A DNA stretch of 64,000 nt from the IMG/VR virus record IMGVR_UViG_3300037762_000184, positions 19,653 through 83,652 of that record; one strand, 5' to 3'. A program made the translations under genes and the position numbers. Of this stretch, positions 2,699 through 58,688 are shown in pieces (the stretch's first letter is position 1; each line of letters opens with the position of its first letter). The notes under the pieces are model-generated. The model ran no database searches and had not been told where the DNA came from. It was given only the letters and a program-made list of their open reading frames with translations. Source of the stretch: a virus (taxonomy: Duplodnaviria; Caudoviricetes).

Positions 2699-3024
2699 GC
2701 CGCGCTCCTCAGCCCGTCGAGCGCCACCTTCCACCCTCCGAAGGAGTCTCCGAGGCAGGCGAGGTCTTGGCGGGTGATGTACTGGTACCGCCTCCCGTCA
2801 GCGTCCTCCCGCCACACGGTGTCGTGCTGCCCTCCCGGCGTCAGGTGCGGGATGCCGTTCAGCCCCGCCGTCCCGTGCCGCATCCTCCGGCGCTTGCCGA
2901 GGATGGGCGGGTGGGTGCGGCGCTGGGCGTAGCGGCTCTGGTAGCCCGGAAGCAGCATGGCCGCCGCCTTCGCGGCCTTCTTCTTGGCCGCCTGCTGCCT
3001 CCGGCGCTCGCTCTTGTTCGCCAT
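2695..3024 (-). CDS. hypothetical basic protein
   Basis: MANKSERRRQQAAKKKAAK; coupled start/stop. Confidence 0.65.
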   Translation of the reverse strand: MANKSERRRQQAAKKKAAKAAAMLLPGYQSRYAQRRTHPPILGKRRRMRHGTAGLNGIPHLTPGGQHDTVWREDADGRRYQYITRQDLACLGDSFGGWKVALDGLRSAA

Positions 3025-3245
3025 CAGTTGAAGCCTTCGATGAAGTCGCGCATCGACTGCGTGGTCTTGAGGTGCCCGGCGAGGCGCAGGGACGCCATCA
3101 GCGCTTTCCCGGGGTGTGTCACCGTCTCCGGGTGCTTGCCGAGGTATGAGAGCATCGAAGCCATCGCTTGGTCGATGTCATTGGAATCGACGTACTCCAG
3201 CGCCCTGGTCTTGCACCAATCGAGGTGTTCGTTTCTCGTTCGCAC
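3024..3245 (-). CDS. conserved phage hypothetical protein
   Basis: EHLDWCKTRALEY...ASMLSYLGKHPET pattern; GAAGGGAGGG RBS before GTG 3245. Confidence 0.7.
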   Translation of the reverse strand: MRTRNEHLDWCKTRALEYVDSNDIDQAMASMLSYLGKHPETVTHPGKALMASLRLAGHLKTTQSMRDFIEGFN

Positions 3246-3266
3246 AGCGTCCCTCCCTTCGGTCAG

Positions 3267-3370
3267 TCGTGGACTCGACGCTGCCCCGGTGGTATCCCCG
3301 CCTCGGCCTTGCACCGGGTCGTGGGGCTTTTGGTCCCCAGGCGGGCGCCGGAGCAGCGTCCAGTCCACGA
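3267..3370 (-). ncRNA. structured RNA candidate A (strand inferred)
   Basis: 17-bp terminal inverted repeat TCGTGGACT-GACGCTGC / GCAGCGTC-AGTCCACGA enclosing internal helices (CCCGCCT/AGGCGGG, GGGGAC/GCCCC). Confidence 0.5.
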
Positions 3371-3687: not shown

Positions 3688-4000
3688 AAGGTTCTCTCCT
3701 CAGTCGTTCCTCGCCTCCACAGGCCGCCCCGACGACGGGGGACGTGTGGGATGTACTGCTGGGCTGCTGTTGGCGGGCCGGCTCACGAACGACAGCCGGA
3801 TCGTTGGTGGCGTTGGGATACGCCGAGGCAGCCTGTGCAGGCGAGGACTTGGAGCGCGAAGCGAGGTAGCGGGTGACGAGCAGCCGCGCCCGTGCGATCT
3901 CAGCGGCGAGCCGGTAGCGGTGCTCTTCCGCCGGCATGCCTTCGACCAGCACGATCCACGGAGAGTCCGGGTGGCGACGGCCGGAGAAGAGGGAGGTCAT
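3686..4000 (-). CDS. hypothetical protein
   Basis: ATGA-coupled start; C-terminus uncertain. Confidence 0.45.
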   Translation of the reverse strand: MTSLFSGRRHPDSPWIVLVEGMPAEEHRYRLAAEIARARLLVTRYLASRSKSSPAQAASAYPNATNDPAVVREPARQQQPSSTSHTSPVVGAACGGEERLRREP

Positions 4001-4380
4001 GCGGACCTCCGGCGGCGCTCTAAGTGAGCGGTCTTGTAGGGCGCGCAGTAGGCGGTGTGCGCTCGCGTGCAGGGCCGACAGCGGCAGCCGTAGTTCGTGT
4101 AGGTGCTGGTCGTCCCGTGCGTCGGGTTTGCCTCGCCGCGGAGGAAGCTCTCGCGCAGGTCGGCTACATGTTGAAGCTGTGCTTCCCGGCAGTCGGCGCA
4201 GCGGCATCCATGGTTGGCGTAGCCGGCGTGCGTTCCGTGTGGGACGCGGCTGAGGTCCCCCTCGGCGACTCTTTGTCGAAAGCGTTGGCGGCGGGCGCGG
4301 GAGTCGGCTGCATGGGCACCACGGCAGGCGTCACACCGGCACCCTTGCTGATAAAGCGAGTCGGTCCCGTGCTCGCTCAC
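3997..4380 (-). CDS. protein with three HGTxxxYxxxGCRCxxC repeats (putative Zn-binding)
   Basis: Repeats visible in the translation. Confidence 0.75.
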   Translation of the reverse strand: MSEHGTDSLYQQGCRCDACRGAHAADSRARRQRFRQRVAEGDLSRVPHGTHAGYANHGCRCADCREAQLQHVADLRESFLRGEANPTHGTTSTYTNYGCRCRPCTRAHTAYCAPYKTAHLERRRRSA

Positions 4381-4562: not shown

Positions 4563-5335
4563 ACCGCGCTCCGAGCGCGAGCCGCGGCATCACTCAGGAA
4601 GGCGAGGGGGAGCCGCCGCTCCTTGGAGGCATGGTTGTAGACCTGCTCCAGGCTGAGCACGTAGTCGCGGATGCTGCGCTGCCTTTCCAGCAGGTGGTTC
4701 CACTTGCCGAGCCTCCTCTCCAGCTCGGTGAGGTCAACTTCCTCGACGATCACGACGCGGGAAGCCGCCTGAACGAACGGCGTCGTGGTGGCGAACGCGC
4801 TGCCCGCCTCCTTGGCGGCCGCGACGAGCCGGGCCACCGCCTCCGCGTGTTGGCGGCCCGCAGGAGTCACTCGGTAGTTGCCCGCCTTGAACCCGGGGTA
4901 CTTGTTGTGACTGGCGGCAAGCTCACCGGCGAGCATCCCGATGCAGCAGCCGAGCGGGAGGTCCGTGCGCGTCCAAAACTGCTTCACCTCGACGTAGTAG
5001 CCGCGCCCCTCGCGAACGTAGGAGGTGAGGTAGTCGGCCAACGACCACGGCTTCGTGGCGGCCTCCAGCTCGTGAATGCCGATATCCCCGTCGTCGGCGA
5101 GGACGTAGTAGACCGGGATGCCAAGCTCGCGGGCGACGGCGAAGCGGTGGTGTCCGGCTTTGATCTTCAGCTTCGTGCCGTTCGGGACGCAGTGGAGTGG
5201 GTACTGCGGCAGGAAGCCATACCGCTCCATGCTCTTGCGCAGCTTGTCGGGCTCCGTGTCCCGGTTCTGTGGGTTCAGCTCGAACTTGTCGTAGTCGCGG
5301 GTCGACAGCAGCTTCGGTGCGGCGGCGGTGGTCAT
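4559..5335 (-). CDS. ParB/Srx N-terminal domain protein
   Basis: NPQNR...LRKSMERYG...KIKAGHHRFAVARELGIPV. Confidence 0.75.
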   Translation of the reverse strand: MTTAAAPKLLSTRDYDKFELNPQNRDTEPDKLRKSMERYGFLPQYPLHCVPNGTKLKIKAGHHRFAVARELGIPVYYVLADDGDIGIHELEAATKPWSLADYLTSYVREGRGYYVEVKQFWTRTDLPLGCCIGMLAGELAASHNKYPGFKAGNYRVTPAGRQHAEAVARLVAAAKEAGSAFATTTPFVQAASRVVIVEEVDLTELERRLGKWNHLLERQRSIRDYVLSLEQVYNHASKERRLPLAFLSDAAARARSAV

Positions 5336-17358: not shown

Positions 17359-18657
17359 GTGGCGGCTCCGGCTCTCCTGCTAGAGACTCCCCGGGCCTTC
17401 CAGCCCCTACTCGCTCCGGCGAGGTACAAGGGCGCCCACGGTGGCCGCGGAGGCGCCAAGAGCTGGTTCTTCGCCGAGCTGCTGGTAGAGCGCTGCATCC
17501 TCCAGCCGGACACCCGCGCCGTTTGCGTCCGCGAGGTTCAACGCTCACTCGACCAATCGGTGAAGCGGCTCCTCGAGGACACCATCGCCCGGCTAGGCGT
17601 CGGCTCCCTGTTCCGCGTCCTGAATACGCATATCGAGACGCTTGCCGGTGGCCGCATCATCTTCCAGGGGATGCAGAACCACACGAGCGAGAGCATCAAG
17701 TCTCTGGAGGGCTACGATGTTGCCTGGGTAGAGGAGGCGCAGGCGCTCAGCCAGCGCTCCCTCGACCTGCTACGCCCCACGATCCGCAAGGACGGCAGCG
17801 AGCTGTGGTTCTCATGGAACCCCAAGAGCCCCGCGGACCCGATCGACTCCTTCCTCCGCGGCGAGAACCCGCCGCCTTCGTCCGTCGTGGTCGAGACGAG
17901 CTGGCGGGATAACCCGTGGCTGCCGGCGGAGCTGCGGACCGAGCTCGAATGGGATCGCCAGCGCGATCCCGGCAAGTACGCCCACGTTTGGGGCGGCGAC
18001 TACCTCCGGCGGACCGAGGCGCGGGTCTTCAATAACTGGACGGTGGAGGATTTCGACACGCCGGACGATGTGCGCTTCTACTTCGGCGGGGATTGGGGCT
18101 TCAGCGTGGACCCGGCGGTCCTTGTGCGCTGCTGGATCGACGGCCGGAAGCTCTACATCGACCGGGAGGCATACAAGATCGGGTGCGAGATCGACTACCT
18201 GCCGTTCCTCTTCGGCGGCATCGAAGATGAAGGGCTACGCCGGTTGAACGCCGAAGCCTGGAAGGCGATGCCTCAGGCGTACCGGGGATGGCAGGGGATC
18301 GATGGCGCGCGGGTCTGGCCGCTGATCGCCGATAGCGCTAGACCGGAAACGATCGACTACCTCAAGCGCCACGGATTCCCGAAGATCGAAGCGGCGCGGA
18401 AGGGGGCGGGGAGTGTCGAGGAGGGCGTCGAGTTTCTGCGTGCCCACGACATCGTGATTCACTCCCGATGCATCCACACCGCTGACGAGTTCGCGACCTA
18501 CAGCTACAAGACCGACCGGCTGACGGATGAGGTACTGCCGGTGCTGGAGGACCGCAAGAACCACGTCATCGACTCGGCACGCTACGCGGTGGAGAAGGTC
18601 CGCCAGGCTCCCAAGAAGGCAGCCGGCGTCTGGGGATCGCGGCGGCGCGGTAGGTAG
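17359..18657 (+). CDS. terL: terminase large subunit (PBSX-like)
   Basis: GGRGGAKS Walker A, CVREVQRS, WVEEAQ Walker B, GGDWGF and NHVIDSARYA nuclease motifs. Confidence 0.95.
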   Translation: MAAPALLLETPRAFQPLLAPARYKGAHGGRGGAKSWFFAELLVERCILQPDTRAVCVREVQRSLDQSVKRLLEDTIARLGVGSLFRVLNTHIETLAGGRIIFQGMQNHTSESIKSLEGYDVAWVEEAQALSQRSLDLLRPTIRKDGSELWFSWNPKSPADPIDSFLRGENPPPSSVVVETSWRDNPWLPAELRTELEWDRQRDPGKYAHVWGGDYLRRTEARVFNNWTVEDFDTPDDVRFYFGGDWGFSVDPAVLVRCWIDGRKLYIDREAYKIGCEIDYLPFLFGGIEDEGLRRLNAEAWKAMPQAYRGWQGIDGARVWPLIADSARPETIDYLKRHGFPKIEAARKGAGSVEEGVEFLRAHDIVIHSRCIHTADEFATYSYKTDRLTDEVLPVLEDRKNHVIDSARYAVEKVRQAPKKAAGVWGSRRRGR

Positions 18658-18870: not shown

Positions 18871-19209
18871 CTACATTTCGGTTCTGTCCTCGACCCACAG
18901 CGCTAGTCCCGACTCGCGATAGTCGGCCCCCGCGGACTCTCTTTGGACGCACACGGCGACCAAGGCTTCTAGCGCGGAGGACGCCTCGCGTTTGCTCCTG
19001 CCAACGTAGACCGTTGGGATGTCCGGCAAGGTGTAATCACTCCGGCCGCAGGCGCAGGTCGTCGGGAAGTAGCCGATTTTGATCAACGGCCGACGGGTGG
19101 CGCGGGTGGCCCATATCTCCCACCAGACGGGCCGGTCGCCTCGCTTCGGCGGCGGCTCCGGCTTGACCGCTCCCGGGGGCGGGCGGGTCGGTAGCTTACG
19201 GTTAGCCAT
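18871..19209 (-). CDS. hypothetical protein
   Basis: Last gene of the minus-strand island. Confidence 0.55.
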   Translation of the reverse strand: MANRKLPTRPPPGAVKPEPPPKRGDRPVWWEIWATRATRRPLIKIGYFPTTCACGRSDYTLPDIPTVYVGRSKREASSALEALVAVCVQRESAGADYRESGLALWVEDRTEM

Positions 19210-19633
19210 CGCCGCGCCCCTCCCACTGAGTACAGCCGAAATCATAGCGAGTGGTCAGGCCGGCGCCCTCAACGGCCATGCCGTCTGCCTTACCGTACGC
19301 GCCAGACGCTACTCCGGGGTCGCCTTCCGAGGCCCTGCGCTGTTCGTCGCGGGCCAAGACGCACTCGCCATGGTCTAGCGGGCTCACGGCAAGGCCGCCC
19401 GGACCCCATGACTGTTGCCACCACCGACACATGTCGCAGCGCGGCAGCGGCATCACCGCCAGTGGTTCGCTAGCGAGCGTGAGAGCGTTGCGGGCTACCT
19501 CGTGCTGGCGACCGAAGCCGCTGGCGACGACCACGTACCACGCCTCTCTCCCGTAAGGGACGCCGACCACGATGCCGATCTCCCCGCTCGCCTTGTGACG
19601 CACGCGATCCTCGACCGCTAATTGTTCGCTCAC
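19202..19633 (-). CDS. hypothetical protein (KOW-like N-terminus, CxxC)
   Basis: DRVRHKASGEIGIVV; CDMCRWW. Confidence 0.55.
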   Translation of the reverse strand: MSEQLAVEDRVRHKASGEIGIVVGVPYGREAWYVVVASGFGRQHEVARNALTLASEPLAVMPLPRCDMCRWWQQSWGPGGLAVSPLDHGECVLARDEQRRASEGDPGVASGAYGKADGMAVEGAGLTTRYDFGCTQWEGRGDG

Positions 19634-20007
19634 TGCGCGCCTCCGTTGTCCGCCAAGCAGTCGTAGAAGATCCGGGTGTGCGTCATCTGCTGCCCGCTCC
19701 AGTCCTCGGCCTTCATGAACTGCTCCTCGCTCACCACCTCCCACTCGGCGCCGCCGTGGTTCGCGGTGCACAGCTTGGCGATCCGGTTGTAAGCCTTCTG
19801 CGGGCCGGCCAGCTCTGAGTAGACGACCGCGCCGTCTACGCGCGGGTCCACGTTGGCCGGGGCGTTGCGCATGTTGGCTGGGGACGGCTCGGCGGTGACG
19901 CAGGCAAGCGCCAGCACCAGCAGAGCCGGGAGCAGCAGGGCTGCGCACCCGTAGCGGACCTCGACATTCGGGGGTGCGGTGGGGAGGGGTGGCTTGGTCG
20001 GCGTCAC
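19630..20007 (-). CDS. putative lipoprotein
   Basis: LLLPALLVLALAC lipobox-like. Confidence 0.6.
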   Translation of the reverse strand: MTPTKPPLPTAPPNVEVRYGCAALLLPALLVLALACVTAEPSPANMRNAPANVDPRVDGAVVYSELAGPQKAYNRIAKLCTANHGGAEWEVVSEEQFMKAEDWSGQQMTHTRIFYDCLADNGGAQ

Positions 20008-20270
20008 GATGCCTCCTCTTCGGTAGTCCATCGTTCGGCGAACCCTGCCGGCATGCCATCCGGCCAGCCGTACTCCGCCCAGCAGAACGCGGCCAAGCTG
20101 CGGATGGCGTCCGCGCTGGGCGTTTGGTGGTCGATCCGGGCGAGTTCCGAGATCTTGGCGTTGAGGCAGGCGTCAGCAGCGGTCCTGTTGCCTACCGTGC
20201 CGGTTGGGGCGCCCGCGCCATCGCAGCCGAGCAGCAGGGCGGGGAGTAGGGCGAAGAGGGGGAGCTTCAT
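20004..20270 (-). CDS. putative lipoprotein
   Basis: MKLPLFALLPALLLGC lipobox. Confidence 0.7.
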   Translation of the reverse strand: MKLPLFALLPALLLGCDGAGAPTGTVGNRTAADACLNAKISELARIDHQTPSADAIRSLAAFCWAEYGWPDGMPAGFAERWTTEEEAS

Positions 20271-20515
20271 GCGCGACCTCCTGAGTCGGTAGCGATTCGC
20301 GCCTCCAGCGCGGCGACCCGGTCCTCCAGCGCCCAGAAGTCCCGCCACATCGGAGCGTGCGAGGCCATCAACCGCTCGTCTTGACGGGGGACGAACTCGT
20401 GCTCGGGTTCGGTGTAGCCGCTGCCGCCTTCGGGGGCTTGCTTGTAGTGCGCCGCCGCGACGTGCCCGCAGACGGCGCAATGGTTGTAGTAGCCGGGGAG
20501 GTCGGCGAGCGTCAC
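20267..20515 (-). CDS. hypothetical protein
   Basis: Coupled overlaps; CAVCGH. Confidence 0.55.
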   Translation of the reverse strand: MTLADLPGYYNHCAVCGHVAAAHYKQAPEGGSGYTEPEHEFVPRQDERLMASHAPMWRDFWALEDRVAALEARIATDSGGRA

Positions 20516-20883
20516 CGCTTCACCTCCACCACGAGCCCCTTGGGGCAAATCGACAAGCGAAACACTGTGTAGCCAAAGGTGAGCCCGTCCTCTTCGAACT
20601 CCACACTTCCCTCGATAGTCACATCCTTGACTTCGTGGTACCCCGGAGCAGACAACGCCTCAGAGGGCTCCAGAACGCGGCCGAATTGCGCTCTCGGTAA
20701 TGGAGCCACCCAGTGCTCGCGAAAGCCGTTGACTTGCACCGGAGTGACGAGGACGCGATCCTCTAGCGCTTCGCGCTCCCATTGCAGTGTCTCTTCGTCG
20801 ATCGGGGTGGTAATGGGAATGCCGCCCCGGTAGACGTAGCCAGGGGCCGGCTCGGCGGCGGTTGCGGTTGGGGTGCTAGGCAT
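20512..20883 (-). CDS. hypothetical protein
   Basis: CAGGAG RBS. Confidence 0.6.
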   Translation of the reverse strand: MPSTPTATAAEPAPGYVYRGGIPITTPIDEETLQWEREALEDRVLVTPVQVNGFREHWVAPLPRAQFGRVLEPSEALSAPGYHEVKDVTIEGSVEFEEDGLTFGYTVFRLSICPKGLVVEVKR

Positions 20884-21043
20884 GGGGTGTCTCCTGGTGG
20901 GTTGTGGTGGCGACTAGCCTCCGCGCCGCGATCTCTACGGCTGCGGAGCGTGAGAGTCCGTTCGCCTTTGCGTAGGCGTCGAGGATGCGCAGGGCCTCCT
21001 CGGTCAGCGTCAAGCTGGTTCGCCGCTTCGTGTCCTTGCTCAA
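20876..21043 (-). CDS. ribbon-helix-helix regulator directly downstream of the pentamer array
   Basis: AAAGGAGG RBS plus TTG; KRRTSLTLTEEALRILDAYAKANGLSRSAAVEIAARR. Confidence 0.8.
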   Translation of the reverse strand: MSKDTKRRTSLTLTEEALRILDAYAKANGLSRSAAVEIAARRLVATTTHQETPHA

Positions 21044-21073
21044 GTCGTCCCTCCTTTCAGGGTGGTTCATAGG

Positions 21074-21734
21074 ATGCCTGCCTAGCGACGTCTGTCCCCG
21101 CCTCGCCCTTCCGCTCCGCGCCTCGCCATTCCTGTCTAGCCTTGCCCGGGCTTGCCTGTCCAGGCCGCGCCACGCCTGCCGTGATTGCCACGCCCGGCCT
21201 AGGCTAGCCCGGCGATGCTCAGCCCAGCGACGCCTGCCTTGCCTTTCCAGTGCTCGCCCCGCCGTTCCGCGCCTTGCCTGCCGCGCCGTACCGGCTGTGC
21301 CTTGCACCGCCTAGCCGGGCCGATCCCTGCCGCCCCTCACCCCGCCTAACCGGTCCGCGCCTGCCGCGCATCTGCCTTGCCTCGCCTTGCCGCGGCAGGC
21401 CTGTACTAGCCCATTCTCGCCCTGCCTCGCCTGTCACGCCAACCCTTGCCTCGCCGCACCATGCCCCGCCCCTCCCTGCCTCGTCTAGCCTGCCTTGGCC
21501 GGCCAGTCCTCGCCTGTTCGCGCCGCGCCAAGCCGGGCGACCCCTTGCCTGCCGCGCCTTGCCTGTCCGAGCCTGTCGTGCCGAGCCCGGCCAAGCCACT
21601 CTGTGCCTAGCCCGTCCTAGTCATGCCTGCCGTGCCTATCCGGGCCGCGCCCCGCCTAGCCGGGCCTTGCCTGCGATGCCGCACCGTTCCCTACCGAGCC
21701 AGGCGGCGCCGGGGCTAGCCGGTCCCCGCCTGCC
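21074..21734 (-). repeat. GG(C/T/A)NN pentamer array, about 12 units (putative guide-RNA array)
   Basis: Minus strand parses as about 120 pentamers (ggcta ggcgg ggcgc ggccc ggata...) broken by 4-nt GGCA/GACA linkers roughly every 25-85 nt. Confidence 0.9.
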
Positions 21735-21743
21735 GCGTCGACT

Positions 21744-22244
21744 TTAGTGAATCGCCTTCACTGCCGAAGCCGCCGCGTCCATCGCTCGCATCGCGAGAGC
21801 GATCCTCGCCATGCGCTCGCTGTCCAGCGTACCGGCGGCGGCTGTCTCCAGATCCGCCAGCGCCCTGGCTGCTGCGTTCATCTTCGCGTTCAGCTCGCCC
21901 ACCGCCGCCGTGAACATATCCGGCGACCGGATCACCTGCTCGACGGGGTGGTAGGCGTCCTGGACGTGGACGTAGACCTTCGTCGCCAGCGGTTCCTCGC
22001 CGTCGCGATCCTCGACGACTTCGATGCTGCGGATCAGCTTGCGGGCCTGATGCTCCCGCCACTTCTCCCCGGCCACGCCGTTGTTCCACTCGAAAGCCGG
22101 ATGCAGGGCGGCCGTCTTCGGTCGCGCCTCCTCGACGACCTCAGCCGGCCGCAGCCCTTCGCGCTCCGCGTGGATGCGCTCCAGCTCTACGCCTACCGCC
22201 TCGGCGTCCACTCCGGCGGGACACCTCTTCAACCGAAACGTCAT
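21744..22244 (-). CDS. partner protein of the RAMP-like gene
   Basis: AEAVGVELERI...EVVEEAR...LHPAFEWNN...WREHQARKLIRSI; ATGA-coupled to the RAMP gene. Confidence 0.75.
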   Translation of the reverse strand: MTFRLKRCPAGVDAEAVGVELERIHAEREGLRPAEVVEEARPKTAALHPAFEWNNGVAGEKWREHQARKLIRSIEVVEDRDGEEPLATKVYVHVQDAYHPVEQVIRSPDMFTAAVGELNAKMNAAARALADLETAAAGTLDSERMARIALAMRAMDAAASAVKAIH

Positions 22245-22906
22245 GCTGCCGCCTCCTCTTCTTCGTTGACGATCTTGAACGTGCCGAACCCCATGCCGTT
22301 GCTCGACTTGGAGAACGGGCGACCTTCGCCGATGCCGACCTGTTCACCCGCACGAGCCACGAGGTTCGCCACGTCCTCGATAGTGAACTGGTCGGCGTCA
22401 TACCGGACCACGATGTTGAGTACCCACTTCCGCCACATGGGGCGGACCCGAATGTCGGCCACGCCGGTCGCGTTGCGGGTCGCCATTTCGGTACGCTCCG
22501 GCTCCCCGGCGTCGAGCTTGACGAGCGGCGCGCCGTCCACCGCGTCGAAGCCGTCCGCCTCGACGAAGACCGACATCTTCGCCCGCGTCATTTGGAAGCC
22601 GACCATCCGGCACACGTCGATACAGGCGTTCCGCAGCGCCGCCGCCGGGACGCCGATCCACCCGTCCGTCGAGCGGTGGAGTGCGCCCTCGAAATCGGCG
22701 TCGAAGTCGCGCGCCTCTCGCTTCGACCCCTTCTTGGCGGTACTGCCCGCCAGCATCTTCGTCTTCATCGCCTGCATCGCCTTGGCGCTGAACCTCGCCT
22801 GCATGAACGGCGCGGTGCCTTCGATGCGGAGCGAAAGACGGTGAAACTTCGGTGGGGTGATGCCGACGGCCGCCGGGGTGCTGGACTTCGTTCCTGCTGC
22901 TGCCAT
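22241..22906 (-). CDS. Cas7/RAMP-like (RRM-fold) protein, Vipr-like
   Basis: N-terminal strand LRIEGTAP, helix IGVPAAALRNACI, C-terminal Gly-rich loop AGEQVGIGEGRP...GMGFGTFKI. Confidence 0.75.
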   Translation of the reverse strand: MAAAGTKSSTPAAVGITPPKFHRLSLRIEGTAPFMQARFSAKAMQAMKTKMLAGSTAKKGSKREARDFDADFEGALHRSTDGWIGVPAAALRNACIDVCRMVGFQMTRAKMSVFVEADGFDAVDGAPLVKLDAGEPERTEMATRNATGVADIRVRPMWRKWVLNIVVRYDADQFTIEDVANLVARAGEQVGIGEGRPFSKSSNGMGFGTFKIVNEEEEAAA

Positions 22907-22959
22907 GAGAAATGCCTCCCTCGTTCACGTTCACGCACGGAATGCACGCGACGGGGCGC

Positions 22960-22988
22960 ACTATACGCGAATTCGGGCAGCATGTCCA
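22960..22988 (-). promoter_or_regulatory. promoter TGGACA-17-TATAGT for the RAMP operon
   Basis: Direct sequence; GAGGGAGG RBS before ATG 22906. Confidence 0.7.
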
Positions 22989-23019
22989 TGGTCGGGTCCA
23001 ACCATGGAAGCCGTGACCC

Positions 23020-23529
23020 TCACCACCTCTCCAATCCGAGGGTGATCGTTTCCGTCACCTGTTCATAGGTCAGGCCGAGCGCAACCGCTGTCGTGACCAG
23101 ACGATCTCGACCCGGCAGCCTCAAGCCGTACAGAACCGCCCACACGTCATCAGCGCTCATGTGGTCGAGACGCGACGCGATCTCGGCGCTTGTCGTGCGC
23201 GACGCGCGGGCTTGCTGCCGAACGAGTCGGCGAAGAGAGCGGCGCCCAATTCGCTCAGGGTCGTGCCGCGGCCTGGCCCTGTTGTAGCGCGGGTGTTCGT
23301 TCGTGATGGCTCGCTGCTCGGCGATAAGCGCTGCCGGCCGGCTCGACAGCCAATCGATGGCGATTGAGGCGACATCGGGCCACCAGAACTTCTCGTGCGA
23401 GTGAAGCGCGAACCGCGCGGAGGGATCGCACGAGATGCCGACATAGAGAAGGTTCCCGGCGGCGTCTACGGCGCGGTAGAGCGCCGTCGGACGCAACTCT
23501 TGGAGCGCTTCGCTGGCCCCGGCAATCAC
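23020..23529 (-). CDS. GIY-YIG domain plus C-terminal HTH protein
   Basis: ALYRAVDAAGNLLYVGIS...RFALH...E...AI..EHPRYN. Confidence 0.75.
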   Translation of the reverse strand: MIAGASEALQELRPTALYRAVDAAGNLLYVGISCDPSARFALHSHEKFWWPDVASIAIDWLSSRPAALIAEQRAITNEHPRYNRARPRHDPERIGRRSLRRLVRQQARASRTTSAEIASRLDHMSADDVWAVLYGLRLPGRDRLVTTAVALGLTYEQVTETITLGLERW

Positions 23530-23786
23530 CAAGGCGCCAGCCCCAGACCTTCCGGCGAGATGACAGTGCCGGCGATCTCTTCGTATCCGATCCCCAGCTC
23601 GACCGCCACCGCCCGCAACTTCTCTGGATCGGGCGGTCGTCGGCACCTAACTTCAATGTGCCGAATATCTTCGGAGTCCACGACGACTCCGGCCGCGGTG
23701 CAGTGTGACGCCAGTTCGTCACGACTCATCCTCGCCCGGAGGCGGCGGCCTTCAATCAGAGTGCGTAGTCGGTAGAAATGGTCCAT
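23526..23786 (-). CDS. XRE-like HTH protein
   Basis: LIEGRRLRARMSRDELA...IRHIE. Confidence 0.6.
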   Translation of the reverse strand: MDHFYRLRTLIEGRRLRARMSRDELASHCTAAGVVVDSEDIRHIEVRCRRPPDPEKLRAVAVELGIGYEEIAGTVISPEGLGLAPW

Positions 23787-23856
23787 TGCGGTTCCAATAG
23801 TACCGCATCGGTGCTTGTGCGCGCAACAAGCACCGGCCACCCTCATTTCGGGACTA

Positions 23857-26800
23857 GTGCGCGTGCCGAAAACCACAACCAACGGAAGCGGCAACGGCGC
23901 GGCCGAACCTCGCCTGCCGACCAGCCGTCTGCGCGCCATGGGCTCAGCGCTGGTGGCGCGCGCACGGCTTGCCTCACGGGCCGGGCTGAGCTTCGGCGGT
24001 AAGCGCGACTTCTACACTGCGCTCGGTTACGAGCGCGACCTCACAATTCAGCACTACCGCGAGCTATACGAACGCGGCGGTATCGCTCGAAAACTGGTCG
24101 ACCTCATCCCGACCCTGGCATGGACAGCCGGCGGCGCCGACATCGTGGAAGACCCGGACCCCGGCGAGCTCACGGAATTCGAGACGCAGGCTGCCGAGCT
24201 GTTCGCGCGCGTCGACGCCTGGCCTCGCTTCCGCCGCGCGGACATCCTTTCTCGTCTCGGCCGCTACTCCGTTCTGCTGCTCGGTACGTCAGACCTTGAA
24301 ACGCAGGCGGACTTCGCGCAGCCGCTGTCGAAGCTCTCCGGTCCGGACGACATCCTCTACCTCACGCCGAGAGCCGAGAGCCACGCGAAGATCTGCTCTC
24401 TCGTCAAGAAGCCTTCCGACCCGCGCTTCGGCCTGCCTGAGTTCTACAACGTCGATCTGGGGCACGACGAAGACAGCAAGGCGCTCCTCTCCGGAGGGAC
24501 GCAGAAAACCCACTGGACGCGCGTGGTCCACATTGCCGGCGGGCTGCTCGATAACGACGTGTACGGCGAGCCGGCCCTGCGTGCGTTGTGGAACCTCCTC
24601 TTCAACCTCGAAAAGCTGCTCGGCGGCGGCTCAGAGGCGACGTGGAAGCGGATGAACCCGCTGACGCTCTTCGACCTGAGCCCCGATGCCGTACTCGGCG
24701 ACACGCCCGCGGAGATCGAGGAAGCCGAAGAGGCGTTGGAGGACGAGATCGAAGAGCTGGTGCATGGGTACCGTTCCTATGCCCAGGCCACTGGTCTCGA
24801 AGTAAAGAGCATCAGTCAGGCGGTGCCCAACTTCGGGCCGAACGCGGCGGCAATCGAACGCCATATCGCGGGCACCGGAAACATCCCCCATCGCGTCCTC
24901 TTCGGAACGGAGCGCGGCGAGCTAGCCAGCGCGCAGGACCGCTCGAATCTCAGCGACAACGTCCAGGGCTACCGGGACAGCCACTGCAACGTGGTAGTCC
25001 GCCAGTTCCTCGCCCGCTTGATTGAATACGGCGCTCTTCCCGGGCCGGTCAAGCATGAGCTGGTATGGCCTGAGATGGAAGAGATGAGCGAGCCCGAAAA
25101 GGCCGACGTGGTCAGCAAGATGGCGACCGCGAACAAGGCCAACGTCGACGCAGGCGGCGGCCTGATCGTCGCCGCGAACGAGTTGCGGAACGACGTACTC
25201 GGCAAAGGGCCTATCGAAGAGATCGAAAACTCCGGGGTGGCCGAGGGAGGCGGCGACGGTGGTCCCTCCTCTGCCGTCGCCGCCTCCCTCCGGGCTGCGA
25301 AGCTCAGGCTGTGCCGGAAGCGCGGGCTGGACTTCGGGCCTGACTCTCCGGCCGCGCTTGCCGGTAACGAGGAGCCAGAGTGGCGCGCAGTCCACCGTGC
25401 TGCCGACTTGCACATGGAGTCTCTGGCGCGGGCTGTCGTCGGCGCCTGGGATGACGGAGCGGCGGAGATCGACGACGGCGCCCTTGAGGACGCGCTCGCC
25501 GCCGGCAACTTCGGTGCCGCCGAAACCGTCGCGCTCGCCGGTGTCACTGCCGCCGAGCAACGTCTCGCCGAGATCCTGCCTGACCGACTACTCGCCACCC
25601 TGGTAGATGGTGGCCTCGCCGCTCTGCGGTCCGCTCGGTCGCGCGGTTCTTTCTTCCGCCGCGCCGCGGGATTCTCGGCGCAGTTCGATGCGACCAACCC
25701 GCGCGCCGTCACGTGGGCGGAGGAGCGTTCCTCGCTGCTGATCACGGAGATCGGCGTCGAAACGGTGTCGGCGATGCAGGCGCTCATCGCGCAGGGCCTC
25801 GCCGAGGGCATCCCGCCCCGGAAGCTGGCGCAGCAGATTCGGGCTGCGGTAGGGCTGCGCTCGGATCAGGTGTCGGCCGTCCAGAACCTCATCACGGAGT
25901 TGCAGGCGGCGAAGCCCGGCTCGCTGGTGACGCGCTTCCCTCCGCGGGAGGGCCTGCGTGGCTCTGCCGGCTTCAAGGCTCGCATTCCGAAGAGCGGCAT
26001 CACGCAGGAGTGGTTGGACCGGCAGGCGGCGCGGTACTCGACGATGCAGCGGAACTACCGAGCCAGAACAATCGCTCGCAGTGAAACAATGAGAAGTGCG
26101 AACGAGGGTGTCCGCGAGCTTTGGAGGCAGGGCCAAGAGTCCGGTCAGCTCCCAGCGGATATCAAGCGGGTCTGGCTTCACAACACTGATCGCCACGCAG
26201 ACCGGGCCGGGGTGGCGGTAGGCATTGACGAGCCTTGGCCGTGGGGAACCGAGCCGGGCGAAGAGGTGAACTGCTTCCTACCTGGAACGGATGTCAGCGG
26301 CGCGTTCGTGGCTGGCCTAAAAACCCTCTATGCGGGGCCGGCTATCGAAGTAGCCACCCGGCAGGGTCACCGGCTGCGCCTCACGCCCAATCACCCCGTA
26401 CTGACTTCGCAAGGTTGGTTGCCGGCGAAGAGTCTCCGCAAGGGCCAGCAGCTTGTCTGCTGCCTTCCGGAGGTTGATCTTCTGTCGAGCGGAGCCCTGC
26501 TCGGGGGCGAACGTCCCGCCAGCGAGGCGTTCTCTCGGCCGAGTCCATCCGTGCCGCGAGCCGTTGGGCGACGTGGCGCAGACGACGATCAGGGACCAAC
26601 CCTGATTGAGGACGTATTCGAAGCGCTTGCGTCTCAGGGCGCCTTGGCGCGCAAAGGCTGTACTGGTCTCGATCTCCACGGCGATGCGAAGTGGTCGGAT
26701 GGCGAGGTCCAGATTGTAGGGGCCGAGAGGGAACTGGTGCGTTACCTTGATTCCGCCGCGTCTCAGGAGAGCAGCGAGCTCATGTTCGAGAGGGCTGGTG

Positions 26801-55032: not shown

Positions 55033-55106
55033 TGGAGCCAGCGCCCGGAGTCGAACCGGTGGGGCCGGTTTACAGGACCGGCTGCGCCCCGCGGCGCTTC
55101 GCTGGC
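55033..55106 (-). tRNA. atypical tRNA (Tyr-GTA-like with a 9-nt loop, or Thr-TGT with C33)
   Basis: GCCAGCG/CGCTGGC acceptor, TTCGA T-loop, encoded CCA; irregular anticodon arm. Confidence 0.6.
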
Positions 55107-55118
55107 TGGAAGGACCGC

Positions 55119-55194
55119 GGGGAGGGCGGGGCTGGAAAACGCCGGCTGTGCTCGACGCCACCCCGCCTCGCGGTAGGGGCCACCCGCCCTCCCC
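55119..55194 (-). ncRNA. three-way-junction RNA, copy 1
   Basis: 12-bp GGGGAGGGCGGG/CCCGCCCTCCCC stem, GCGA tetraloop hairpin; covaries with copy 2. Confidence 0.65.
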
Positions 55195-55211
55195 GAAGCC
55201 TCCCGGAAGAT

Positions 55212-55282
55212 TGGGAGCAGGGGGCGGATTTGAACCGTCTCTACAAGGGTTATGAGCCCTCGCTGTCTCCAAGACTCCCTGC
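55212..55282 (-). tRNA. degenerate tRNA-Met/Ile2 (CAT)
   Basis: GAGGG-CTCATAA-CCCTT anticodon arm, TTCAAAT T-loop; 3-nt D-loop, stem mismatches. Confidence 0.6.
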
Positions 55283-55289
55283 GAAAGCG

Positions 55290-58412: not shown

Positions 58413-58688
58413 CTAGGGATTATACCCTCTGCGGACGCCCTGTGTCCATCTGGCAACGGCACCTTCGACGGTGCCCGAGATTGGCCCGGAGGCACCGCAA
58501 CGCCAGCACTCGACCCGCCAGGAACCGTCCACCTCCAGCGGTTTGGCGCGGTGAGTGGCCGTGCCGCCGCTCCGCCCGGCGCCGCAGTAGCGACAAGGAA
58601 CAATGGTGCTCCCGGGAGGAATCGAACCCCCGACCCTGCGGATAGGAACCGCTCGCTCTGTCCCCTGAGCTACGGGAGCGCTTTTCAT
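58413..58688 (-). CDS. Lar-like (restriction alleviation) Zn-ribbon protein overlapping tRNA-Arg
   Basis: PCRYCG...WRVECWRCGASGP...AVARW; ATGA-coupled start. Confidence 0.5.
   Translation of the reverse strand: MKSAPVAQGTERAVPIRRVGGSIPPGSTIVPCRYCGAGRSGGTATHRAKPLEVDGSWRVECWRCGASGPISGTVEGAVARWTQGVRRGYNP
58419..58448 (-). promoter_or_regulatory. promoter TGGACA-18-TATAAT
   Basis: Direct sequence. Confidence 0.55.
58604..58679 (-). tRNA. tRNA-Arg (CCT)
   Basis: Canonical 76-nt cloverleaf GCTCCCG...CGGGAGC-A-CCA; anticodon loop TTCCTAT. Confidence 0.9.

What the first reader, a model, noticed from the sequence alone, without database searches (positions are those of the whole stretch)
21074..21734. 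Internal grammar of the array: about 12 guide-like units with decodable dinucleotide strings
Seen: the 5-nt register is reset by 4-nt linkers (GGCA, GACA, CGCA followed by GG), giving units of roughly 4-16 pentamers. The triplet is conserved while positions 4-5 vary freely, unlike a microsatellite. Decoded NN strings: unit 21436-21490 = TA GA AG GG GG AT GC GA AA TT GT; unit near 21560-21630 = AT TA CG TA AC GT TT CG TC AC; unit near 21290-21360 = GC CC TA GG GA GC AG TC CC TA GG AA AC; last unit near 21085-21135 = AT GA GC GC AG GA GG CA GT TA. Inference: each unit is one guide specifying a gapped target (for example NNx NNx). Skipping every third base would tolerate synonymous changes. GGCAGGC could be the processing site.
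Basis: partly seen in the sequence, partly recalled or inferred. Interest (0 to 1): 0.85.

Follow-up and report, generated by a model that had tools for sequence, protein, structure and literature searches.

The report
Phage VIPR guide-RNA array (staggered type)

Summary
On the minus strand, 21074-21734 is about 134 GGC-NN pentamers. Positions 1-3 are conserved and positions 4-5 are near random. There are 13 register shifts, all by -1, made by 4-mers (mostly GGCA).

The gene just upstream (22241-22906, minus) is a Cas7-like RAMP. It matches the solved SUSP1 Vipr protein, and the next gene is its conserved accessory partner.

Across 78 related loci, 68 carry same-strand arrays. Units are typically 9-12 pentamers and end in GGCAG, whose last G starts the next unit. 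This is the "staggered, 1-nt overlapping" vrRNA array already drawn in the VIPR preprint (10.64898/2026.04.26.720920). That preprint also established the NNx one-base-skip code.

Fourteen loci with at least 99% identical Vipr hold 60 different guides, so guide content turns over quickly.

Two guides give target leads, both in phase with codon wobble:
- One matches 20/20 positions in an excisionase-type gene on an integrase-bearing metagenome contig.
- One spells the conserved portal motif (18/22 in the phage's own portal).

Neither is proven. This scan has met VIPR arrays on other genomes before. Verdict: a new member of a known kind.

The parts
21074..21734 (-). vrRNA array: about 134 GGY-NN pentamers in about 14 register-defined units. 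Unit spans, minus strand, high to low coordinate: 21730-21671, 21671-21627, 21627-21573, 21573-21549, 21549-21490, 21490-21431, 21431-21372, 21361-21292, 21292-21278, 21278-21234, 21234-21185, 21185-21176, 21176-21132, 21132-21078. Neighbouring units share one G.
   Evidence: the same architecture occurs in 68 of 78 related loci
21573..21627 (-). Guide unit U3 (10 NN plus the terminal GACAG). On the opposite strand it decodes to V-[DE]-R-[KN]-T-V-Y-R-Y-[IM]. It matches 20/20 positions, in wobble phase, in an HTH_17/excisionase gene of metagenome contig L216.
   Evidence: chance calibration
21431..21490 (-). Guide unit U6 (11 NN plus the terminal GACAG). It decodes in the sense direction to Y-[DE]-[KNSR]-G-G-[IM]-A-[DE]-[KN]-[FL]-V, which is the conserved N-terminal motif of PF06381 portal proteins.
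22241..22906 (-). vipr gene: a 221-aa Cas7-like RAMP protein (phrog_4652)
   Evidence: phmmer hit to PDB 36pp 'SUSP1 Vipr protein', E 0.0025, over the thumb and G-loop. AlphaFold model pLDDT 83.6. The Foldseek top hits listed are chains of type III (Csm, Cmr, III-D) and type VII CRISPR effector complexes, probability 1.00; reading them as Cas7-family backbone subunits is my inference. More than 3000 homologs.
21744..22244 (-). vap-like accessory gene: 166 aa (phrog_15946)
   Evidence: A homolog lies next to vipr in 65 of 78 loci. Model pLDDT 92.8, with only weak winged-helix-like structural hits. No Pfam family.
22960..22988 (-). Sigma-70-like promoter candidate upstream of vipr (TGGACA, 17 nt, TATAGT; 10 of 12)
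   Evidence: a consensus match only
20876..21070 (-). Ribbon-helix-helix (CopG) gene directly after the array. It lies inside the indel cassette but is not conserved with VIPR modules elsewhere.
20787..23017 (-). Extent of the VIPR cassette (promoter, vipr, vap, array, RHH). It is absent from a close relative whose portal-side flank is 97% identical (its other flank is 86% identical).
   Evidence: L089: flanks align to 19628-20786 and 23018-26060, with 17 bases in between
24067..24098 (+). The phage's own portal codons for YERGGIARKLV: the near-match to guide U6 (18/22 NN positions, 10/11 residues), with the skipped base on the wobble position.

Best explanation
The tract is the guide-RNA (vrRNA) array of a phage-borne VIPR system of the 'staggered' architecture.

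Proposed sequence of events:
1. A promoter upstream of vipr drives one minus-strand transcript: vipr, vap, array (inferred).
2. Vipr protomers bind one pentamer each. They bury the GGY bases and present the two N bases (published for the SUSP1 system; inferred here from homology).
3. A run of about 9-14 pentamers in one register forms one guide filament.
4. Each run ends in GGCAG, whose last G is the first G of the next run. The register therefore slips by -1 at every boundary (shown in the sequence, and conserved in relatives).
5. The slip, with or without RNA cleavage at GGCAG|GC, delimits the guides (inferred).
6. Each filament binds double-stranded DNA that reads NNxNNx..., skipping every third base. 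This tolerates synonymous changes, and binding silences transcription of rival mobile elements (published; not tested for this phage).

Likely targets here are an excisionase-type regulator of an integrative element (guide U3) and the portal gene of sibling phages (guide U6).
For: The array:
- Pentamer grammar, with every shift -1 and made through xxCA 4-mers.

The proteins:
- The adjacent 221-aa protein hits PDB 36pp 'SUSP1 Vipr protein' (E 0.0025). Thumb Arg and G-loop Arg align: R155 and R196 correspond to SUSP1 R138 and R179, and E194 to D177.
- Its model's best structural matches listed are chains of type III and type VII CRISPR effector complexes.
- vap is conserved next to vipr in 65 of 78 loci.

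Relatives:
- 68 of 78 loci with a Vipr homolog carry arrays on the vipr strand. Of 525 closed units, 339 have 9-12 pentamers (mode 10), and 434 end in GGCAG.
- Over 392 units, scaffold positions carry 0.6-2 bits. NN positions carry about 0-0.2 bits, except one next to the unit end at 0.6 bits.
- 14 loci with at least 99% identical Vipr hold 60 distinct guides, and only 21 are shared.
- The cassette is an indel relative to a close relative (97% identical on the portal side).

Target leads:
- U6 against the phage's own genome scores 18/22. Base shuffles average 15.1, with 0 of 1000 reaching 18; dinucleotide-order shuffles give P = 0.006. At residue level it scores 10/11, with 0 of 500 shuffles reaching that.
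- Across 80 portal-homolog loci, three of U6's four top hits (all three at 18/22) fall on the portal motif under skip 1; skips 0, 2 and 3 stay at null level.
- U3 matches 20/20 in wobble phase in an HTH_17/excisionase gene on a contig that also carries a tyrosine integrase.

Published mechanism, staggered arrays and targets.
Against: - No RNA data.
- Only 64% of pentamers are strict GGY, so some units may be decayed.
- The G-loop reads GIGEGRP rather than GVGDWRP. The Trp that stacks on G2 in SUSP1 is an invariant Gly in this clade.
- There is no 3' tail or pseudoknot as in type II systems.
- Target evidence is thin. A 20-base exact pattern finds about one chance hit per large collection; the same U3 pattern hit an out-of-phase site in Niastella.
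- U6 has no exact target anywhere searched. Its best external hit, 21/22 in a 40% GC phage, looks like chance.
- Four further guides gave no exact hit and the other five were not sent to any public collection.
- Pooled guides of relatives show no clear skip-1 excess in the small local sets.
Confidence: 0.9

Rival explanations
1. The tract is a VIPR array in origin, but in this phage it is largely decayed or not processed into separate guides. It would be a long leader or UTR-like RNA with few or no working guides.
For: - Strict GGY in only 86 of 134 pentamers, lower than in relatives.
- Irregular short units of 1-5 pentamers.
- Of the 11 guides, four sent to public collections found nothing and five were never sent to one; only two gave leads.
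Against: - Junctions are intact: 13 of 14 are xxCA followed by GG.
- vipr and vap are intact and conserved.
- The preprint reports frequent internal degeneracy in working vrRNAs.
- Two guides give in-phase coding matches.
Confidence: 0.07
2. The tract is a protein-binding scaffold or sponge RNA with no guide role. An oligomeric protein would read the GGC triplets, as TRAP reads spaced triplets or CsrA-binding sRNAs carry GGA motifs, and the NN positions would be mere spacers.
For: This was my first guess from the anatomy alone: triplets with 2-nt spacers and units of about 11.
Against: - Spacers that carried no information would drift by point changes. Instead, whole units are swapped among loci whose protein is 99% identical.
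- The partner protein is a Cas7-like RAMP homologous to a solved guide-presenting Vipr.
- Two NN strings read as in-phase coding motifs.
Confidence: 0.02
3. The tract is not an RNA element. It could be a coding region (the homologous tract in Mycobacterium phage Donkeykong is annotated as gene 48), a DNA-level repeat such as a binding-site array or G-quadruplex tract, or a slippage-made microsatellite.
For: - Long ORFs overlap the tract on both strands.
- GenBank annotates a hypothetical protein over the mycobacteriophage array.
- The sense strand is G-rich, with GG every 5 nt.
Against: - A 5-nt period with -1 slips breaks every reading frame.
- Positions 4-5 are near random, so no protein is conserved.
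- Tandem Repeats Finder sees only short fragments, unlike a microsatellite.
- In all 68 array-bearing loci the main array is on the vipr strand.
Confidence: 0.01

Closest known systems
VIPR systems with staggered vrRNA arrays (bioRxiv 10.64898/2026.04.26.720920, Fig. S18 legend)
   Same: - A Vipr RAMP gene plus a vap gene plus GGY/NN pentamer guides.
- Neighbouring guides overlap by 1 nt, so the end of one marks the start of the next.
- Carried by a phage.
   Different: - The preprint gives the staggered layout as a diagram. It reports sRNA-seq confirmation only for the ribozyme-interspersed and single-guide layouts, so the ends of staggered guides are still inferred.
- I could not find out which of the seven types this clade belongs to; the supplement text held has no table.
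Type II VIPR of Escherichia phage SUSP1 (Vipr structure PDB 36pp; 10.64898/2026.04.26.720927)
   Same: - Homologous Vipr, with thumb and G-loop aligned.
- 9-16 pentamers per guide.
- The NNx code with the skipped base on codon wobble.
- Targets are recombination or regulatory genes of rival elements.
   Different: - SUSP1 guides are separate RNAs of about 100 nt, each with an invariant 3' tail and pseudoknot. Here there is no tail, and 14 units abut directly.
- The G-loop Trp (SUSP1 W178) is Gly here.
- The accessory protein could not be compared with SUSP1 vap1 here: no sequence of it was on hand, and the model found only weak winged-helix-like matches.
Class 1 CRISPR-Cas Cas7 backbone with crRNA
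   Same: A RAMP fold (chains of type III and type VII CRISPR effector complexes are the best structural matches), one protomer per repeat unit of guide, and periodic flipped bases.
   Different: - Period 5 with 3 buried bases, rather than 6 with 1 flipped.
- The guide is non-contiguous.
- No CRISPR repeats or cas genes were noticed in the cassette (this was not tested by a search).
- New guides arise by an unknown route.
TRAP-type or CsrB-type RNAs with spaced triplet motifs
   Same: Short conserved triplets separated by 2-nt variable spacers, read by an oligomeric protein.
   Different: Those spacers carry no information and those proteins are not RAMPs. Here the spacers are the information. 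This was a resemblance only and was rejected.

Membership tests
VIPR system | Vipr protein next to the array: a minimal RAMP with an RRM core, thumb and glycine-rich loop | tested here: met
   - phmmer to PDB 36pp Vipr, E 0.0025, over the thumb and G-loop.
- Model pLDDT 83.6, and the top Foldseek hits listed are chains of type III and type VII CRISPR effector complexes at probability 1.00.
- R155, G191, G195 and R196 are invariant in 35 homologs.
VIPR system | Tandem GGY-NN pentamers, about 9-16 per guide, on the vipr strand | tested here: met
   134 pentamers, with 11 units of 9-14. 68 of 78 related loci have same-strand arrays, with a modal unit of 10.
VIPR system | GGY conserved while NN is hypervariable among relatives | tested here: met
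   Logos over 392 units. 60 distinct guides in 14 loci with at least 99% identical Vipr.
VIPR system | Accessory vap gene in the operon | tested here: met
   A homolog of the 166-aa protein lies beside vipr in 65 of 78 loci. Its DNA-binding nature is only weakly suggested.
VIPR system | Guides match natural DNA targets by the one-base-skip (NNx) rule | tested here: inconclusive
   - U3 matches 20/20 in wobble phase in an excisionase-type gene, but about one chance hit per scan is expected.
- U6 matches the portal motif at 18/22, only with skip 1.
- Four other guides had no exact hit; five were not scanned in public collections.
VIPR system | No self-targeting at 80% or more NN identity | tested here: inconclusive
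   Ten of the 11 guides stay at or below 75% in the phage's own genome. U6 reaches 18/22, or 82%, on the own portal gene; counting its terminal AG it is 18/24, or 75%.
VIPR system | vrRNAs are expressed, processed and bound by Vipr; binding silences the target | not testable with these tools
VIPR, staggered-array architecture | Adjacent guides overlap by 1 nt, with no tail or ribozyme between them | tested here: met
   All 13 junctions shift the register by -1, and the terminal pentamer xxCAG shares its G with the next unit. Rfam finds no ribozyme in the window.
VIPR type II (SUSP1-like) | Each guide is followed by an invariant structured 3' tail with a pseudoknot | tested here: not met
   Units abut directly. 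The only constant part is the 5-nt GGCAG.
CRISPR-Cas | Direct repeats of 25-40 nt separating unique spacers, with cas1/cas2 or other cas genes nearby | not tested
   No dedicated test was run. In passing: Tandem Repeats Finder on 19000-24000 reports only short periods of 14-20 nt in about two copies, and Pfam and PHROGs hits on ten of the cassette's and flanking ORFs name no Cas family. No repeat or cas search of the whole window was made.

The most novel reading that the evidence does not exclude
In this tail-less, staggered class, the one-base register slip itself sets the guide ends. A 4-nt GGCA step would stop the Vipr filament, with no pseudoknot cap or ribozyme needed.

This phage would then use the array in two ways: to silence the excisionase of a resident integrative element (U3), and the portal gene of sibling phages (U6). 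Its own portal would be spared by four changed positions, two of them synonymous first-position codon swaps (Arg CGN for AGR, Leu CTN for TTR).
Probability: 0.3. Interest if true: 0.5.

Novelty: new member of a known kind. Interest (0 to 1): 0.3.

Why it matters
The result shows that sequence reading alone can recover the VIPR code, and it adds a well-delimited example of the least-studied array layout.

What this example offers:
- A staggered array with no tail, sitting in a 2.2-kb cassette that carries its own promoter candidate. That is a compact construct for asking how guide ends are set.
- Two testable guide-target pairs. One lies in a structural gene shared with the phage itself, which gives a natural test of how many mismatches protect self.

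It does not open a new kind of system. The class, the skip rule and the staggered layout are already in 2026 preprints.

Tried and rejected
Readings considered and dropped:
- A TRAP/CsrB-like scaffold, a G-quadruplex tract and a coding region. See the rival explanations.

Searches that found nothing:
- Rfam: nothing in the array.
- Self-target scan with skips 0-3: only U6 stands out.
- 299 guides of relatives against 1.3 Mb of VIPR loci, and 293 guides against 1.0 Mb of portal loci: no clear excess for skip 1. For matches of at least 0.8 identity, 102 against 84 in the null. These sets are small and not the relevant prey.
- Convergent guides in other arrays for the TVYR or GGIA motifs: none.
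- Distant homologs of the L216 excisionase gene: U3 stays below 75%.
- L216 shares nothing with the phage.

Exact pattern scans:
- U6, 9 NN, in IMG/VR: 5 hits in unrelated ORFs; four matched none of the three flanking dinucleotides and one (L085) matched one.
- U6, 10 NN, in metagenomes: 0.
- U6, 3' 8 NN, in IMG/VR: 47 hits, none in a portal gene. The best was 21/22 in an unknown ORF of a 40% GC phage, judged to be chance.
- U3, 9 NN, in IMG/VR: 0.
- U3, 10 NN, in genomes: 1 out-of-phase hit.
- U7b and U13 in genomes, and U5 and U7a in IMG/VR: 0.

Tools that could not be used:
- No complex prediction was sent.

Full report
**What is in the sequence**

Read on the minus strand, window 21074-21734 is a run of GGC-NN pentamers. 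GGC triplets are spaced by multiples of 5 nt, and the phase changes 13 times, each time by -1.

A register-aware parse gives runs of pentamers closed by a 4-mer: GGCA nine times, GACA three times, CGCA once and AGCC once. Put another way, each run ends in a pentamer xxCAG whose last G is also the first G of the next run.

Over 134 pentamers, positions 1-3 carry 1.38, 1.26 and 0.87 bits. Positions 4-5 carry 0.05 bits each.

A five-triplet pattern with up to one mismatch occurs 15 times, all in the array, against 0.28 expected from shuffles. The array is unique in the genome.

Unit sizes are 12, 9, 11, 5, 12, 12, 12, 14, 3, 9, 10, 2, 9 and 11 pentamers, plus a 6+4 nt junction at 21371-21362.

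**Context**

The window is part of a complete 83.6-kb phage genome with terminal repeats. The large terminase (17359-18654, plus strand) and the portal (from 23815, plus strand) are separated by a minus-strand island.

In the sense direction the island reads as follows:
- a promoter-like site at 22988-22960;
- a 221-aa gene (22241-22906; phrog_4652);
- a 166-aa gene (21744-22244; phrog_15946);
- the array;
- a ribbon-helix-helix gene (20876-21070).

A close relative (L089) is 97% identical on the portal side of the island and 86% identical on the other side. It lacks exactly 20787-23017, so promoter, both genes, array and RHH form an indel cassette.

**Identification**

The 221-aa protein has no Pfam family. 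It hits PDB 36pp, "SUSP1 Vipr protein", at E 0.0025 over the thumb and glycine-rich loop. That name led to three 2026 preprints.

What the preprints report:
- VIPR systems pair a minimal RAMP protein, Vipr, with vrRNAs made of 9-16 GGY/NN pentamers.
- One protomer binds one pentamer, buries GGY and presents NN.
- The NN dinucleotides pair with double-stranded DNA that reads NNx, skipping every third base, usually the codon wobble position.
- Binding silences transcription of rival phages and satellites.
- The first preprint lists seven types. [quoted passage not shown] S18 legend). That is the grammar seen here.

**Independent tests of membership**

The Vipr protein:
- An AlphaFold model built on 35 homologs has pLDDT 83.6. 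Its best PDB matches listed are chains of type III (Csm, Cmr, III-D) and type VII CRISPR effector complexes, at probability 1.00. I read these as Cas7-family backbone subunits; that is my inference from the entry titles.
- The SUSP1 residues R138 (thumb) and R179 (G-loop) align to R155 and R196, which are invariant in this clade, and D177 aligns to E194.
- W178 aligns to an invariant Gly, so this clade differs at the residue that stacks on G2.

The related loci:
- I fetched 76 loci encoding relatives of the protein. Two annotated phages came from a DNA search.
- 68 of the 78 loci carry pentamer arrays on the vipr strand, placed directly after vipr, after the next gene, or both.
- Of 525 closed units, 339 have 9-12 pentamers (mode 10).
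- 434 end in GGCAG, and 474 end in xxCAG.
- Over 392 units, scaffold positions carry 0.6-2 bits. NN positions carry about 0-0.2 bits, except one next to the unit end at 0.6 bits.
- A homolog of the 166-aa protein lies beside vipr in 65 of 78 loci. The RHH and the nearby endonuclease are not conserved with the module.
- The accessory protein folds confidently (pLDDT 92.8) but finds only weak winged-helix-like matches.

**Are the units guides?**

Fourteen loci whose Vipr proteins are at least 99% identical hold 60 distinct NN strings. Only 21 of these are shared by two or more loci.

Forty-one have no relative of 80% identity or more among the others. The rest form small families that differ by one or two NN letters. 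Content therefore turns over by whole units, as expected of guides. It does not behave like drifting spacers.

**Target leads from this window**

In the phage's own genome, ten guides stay at shuffle level. U6 (21490-21431) does not.
- It scores 18/22 at 24067-24098, inside the portal gene and in frame, with the skipped base on wobble.
- The site encodes YERGGIARKLV, and the guide decodes to Y-[DE]-[KNSR]-G-G-[IM]-A-[DE]-[KN]-[FL]-V.
- Base shuffles never reached 18 in 1000 trials. Dinucleotide-order shuffles reached it in 0.6%. At residue level, 10/11 was never reached in 500 trials.
- The motif is the conserved N-terminal motif of PF06381 portals.
- In 80 portal-homolog loci, three of U6's four top hits (all three at 18/22) fall on that motif under skip 1. 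Skips 0, 2 and 3 stay at null level.
- Two of the four mismatches in the own gene are synonymous first-position swaps (CGN for AGR, CTN for TTR).
- No exact target was found.

U3 (21627-21573) has one exact 20/20 match in the metagenome collection.
- The site is L216 4205-4233. On the coding strand it reads V-D-R-K-T-V-Y-R-Y-I, with every skipped base on wobble.
- It lies in the recognition-helix region of an HTH_17/excisionase-family gene, on a contig that also carries a tyrosine integrase.
- The same pattern found one out-of-phase site in a Niastella genome. About one chance hit per large scan is therefore expected.
- The weight of the L216 hit rests on its phase and its gene class. That is a judgement made after the fact.
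- Excision and regulatory genes are the published prey of SUSP1 and P. fulva VIPRs.

I put about 55% on the excisionase gene being a real target of U3. I put about 50% on U6 being aimed at the portal genes of sibling phages.

Earlier checks in this scan found that claims built on 80% matches to conserved motifs partly fell. I therefore do not lean on the 82% self-match.

**What is not shown**

No RNA evidence could be obtained. The DNA of the closest relatives could not be fetched. Which of the seven types this clade belongs to could not be read from the text held. For staggered arrays the preprint itself reports no small-RNA confirmation, so how the guide ends are made is open. Either the register slip or cleavage at GGCAG|GC could be the delimiter.

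**Verdict**

The element is a new member of a known kind, and this scan has found the same kind on several other genomes.

Noticed in passing
L001 (Mycobacterium phage Donkeykong NC_051648) 2956-3342, 2243-2989, 1773-2228: Cluster F mycobacteriophages carry the same module. The tract annotated as gene 48 'hypothetical protein' (left unannotated in several relatives) is a GGC-NN array of about 70 pentamers. gp49 is a Vipr homolog (hhalign probability 99.8%, E 1.4e-28). gp50 matches the accessory protein. The main text of the VIPR preprint does not mention mycobacteriophages.
   Followed up: partly
L002 (Cyanophage Cy-LDV1 BK059895) 3206-3347 and 3964-4145; genes g33 and g34: This record carries vipr (64% identical) and vap (43% identical), with two arrays, one between the genes and one after. 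The genes are annotated only as hypothetical proteins.
   Followed up: partly
window 20787-23017 versus L089: A close relative (97% identical on the portal side, 86% on the other) lacks the whole VIPR cassette. The neighbouring endonuclease-like gene (23020-23646) is kept. The cassette behaves as a mobile or deletable unit next to a nuclease gene.
   Followed up: partly
window 22244-22906 (protein residues 191-197): In this Vipr clade the G-loop reads GIGEGRP. The Trp that stacks on the second G in the SUSP1 structure is an invariant Gly here, whereas the mycobacteriophage homolog keeps GVGDWRP. Recognition of G2 may differ.
   Followed up: no
window 21043-21078: The array runs to within 3 nt of an ATG (21070) of the RHH gene. 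A stronger ribosome-binding site precedes an in-frame TTG at 21043. The RHH gene is in the cassette but is not found with VIPR modules elsewhere, so it may be a local regulator.
   Followed up: no
L085 4699-4731 (IMGVR_UViG_3300021791_000001): Guide U6 matches 21 of 22 positions, in frame, in a 163-aa ORF of unknown family in a 40% GC phage. This is about what chance allows in a collection of this size, and the GC content argues for a different host.
   Followed up: partly
L218 (Vicinamibacterales MAG) 4608-4799: The nearest genome-borne relative (47% identity) of the excisionase-type protein matched by U3 lies in an Acidobacteriota MAG. This fits the host guess in earlier notes but is weak evidence.
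   Followed up: no
window 55033-55283 and 58604-58679: Three tRNA genes (Thr-TGT, Met-CAT, Arg-CCT) lie on the minus strand of the phage genome.
   Followed up: no
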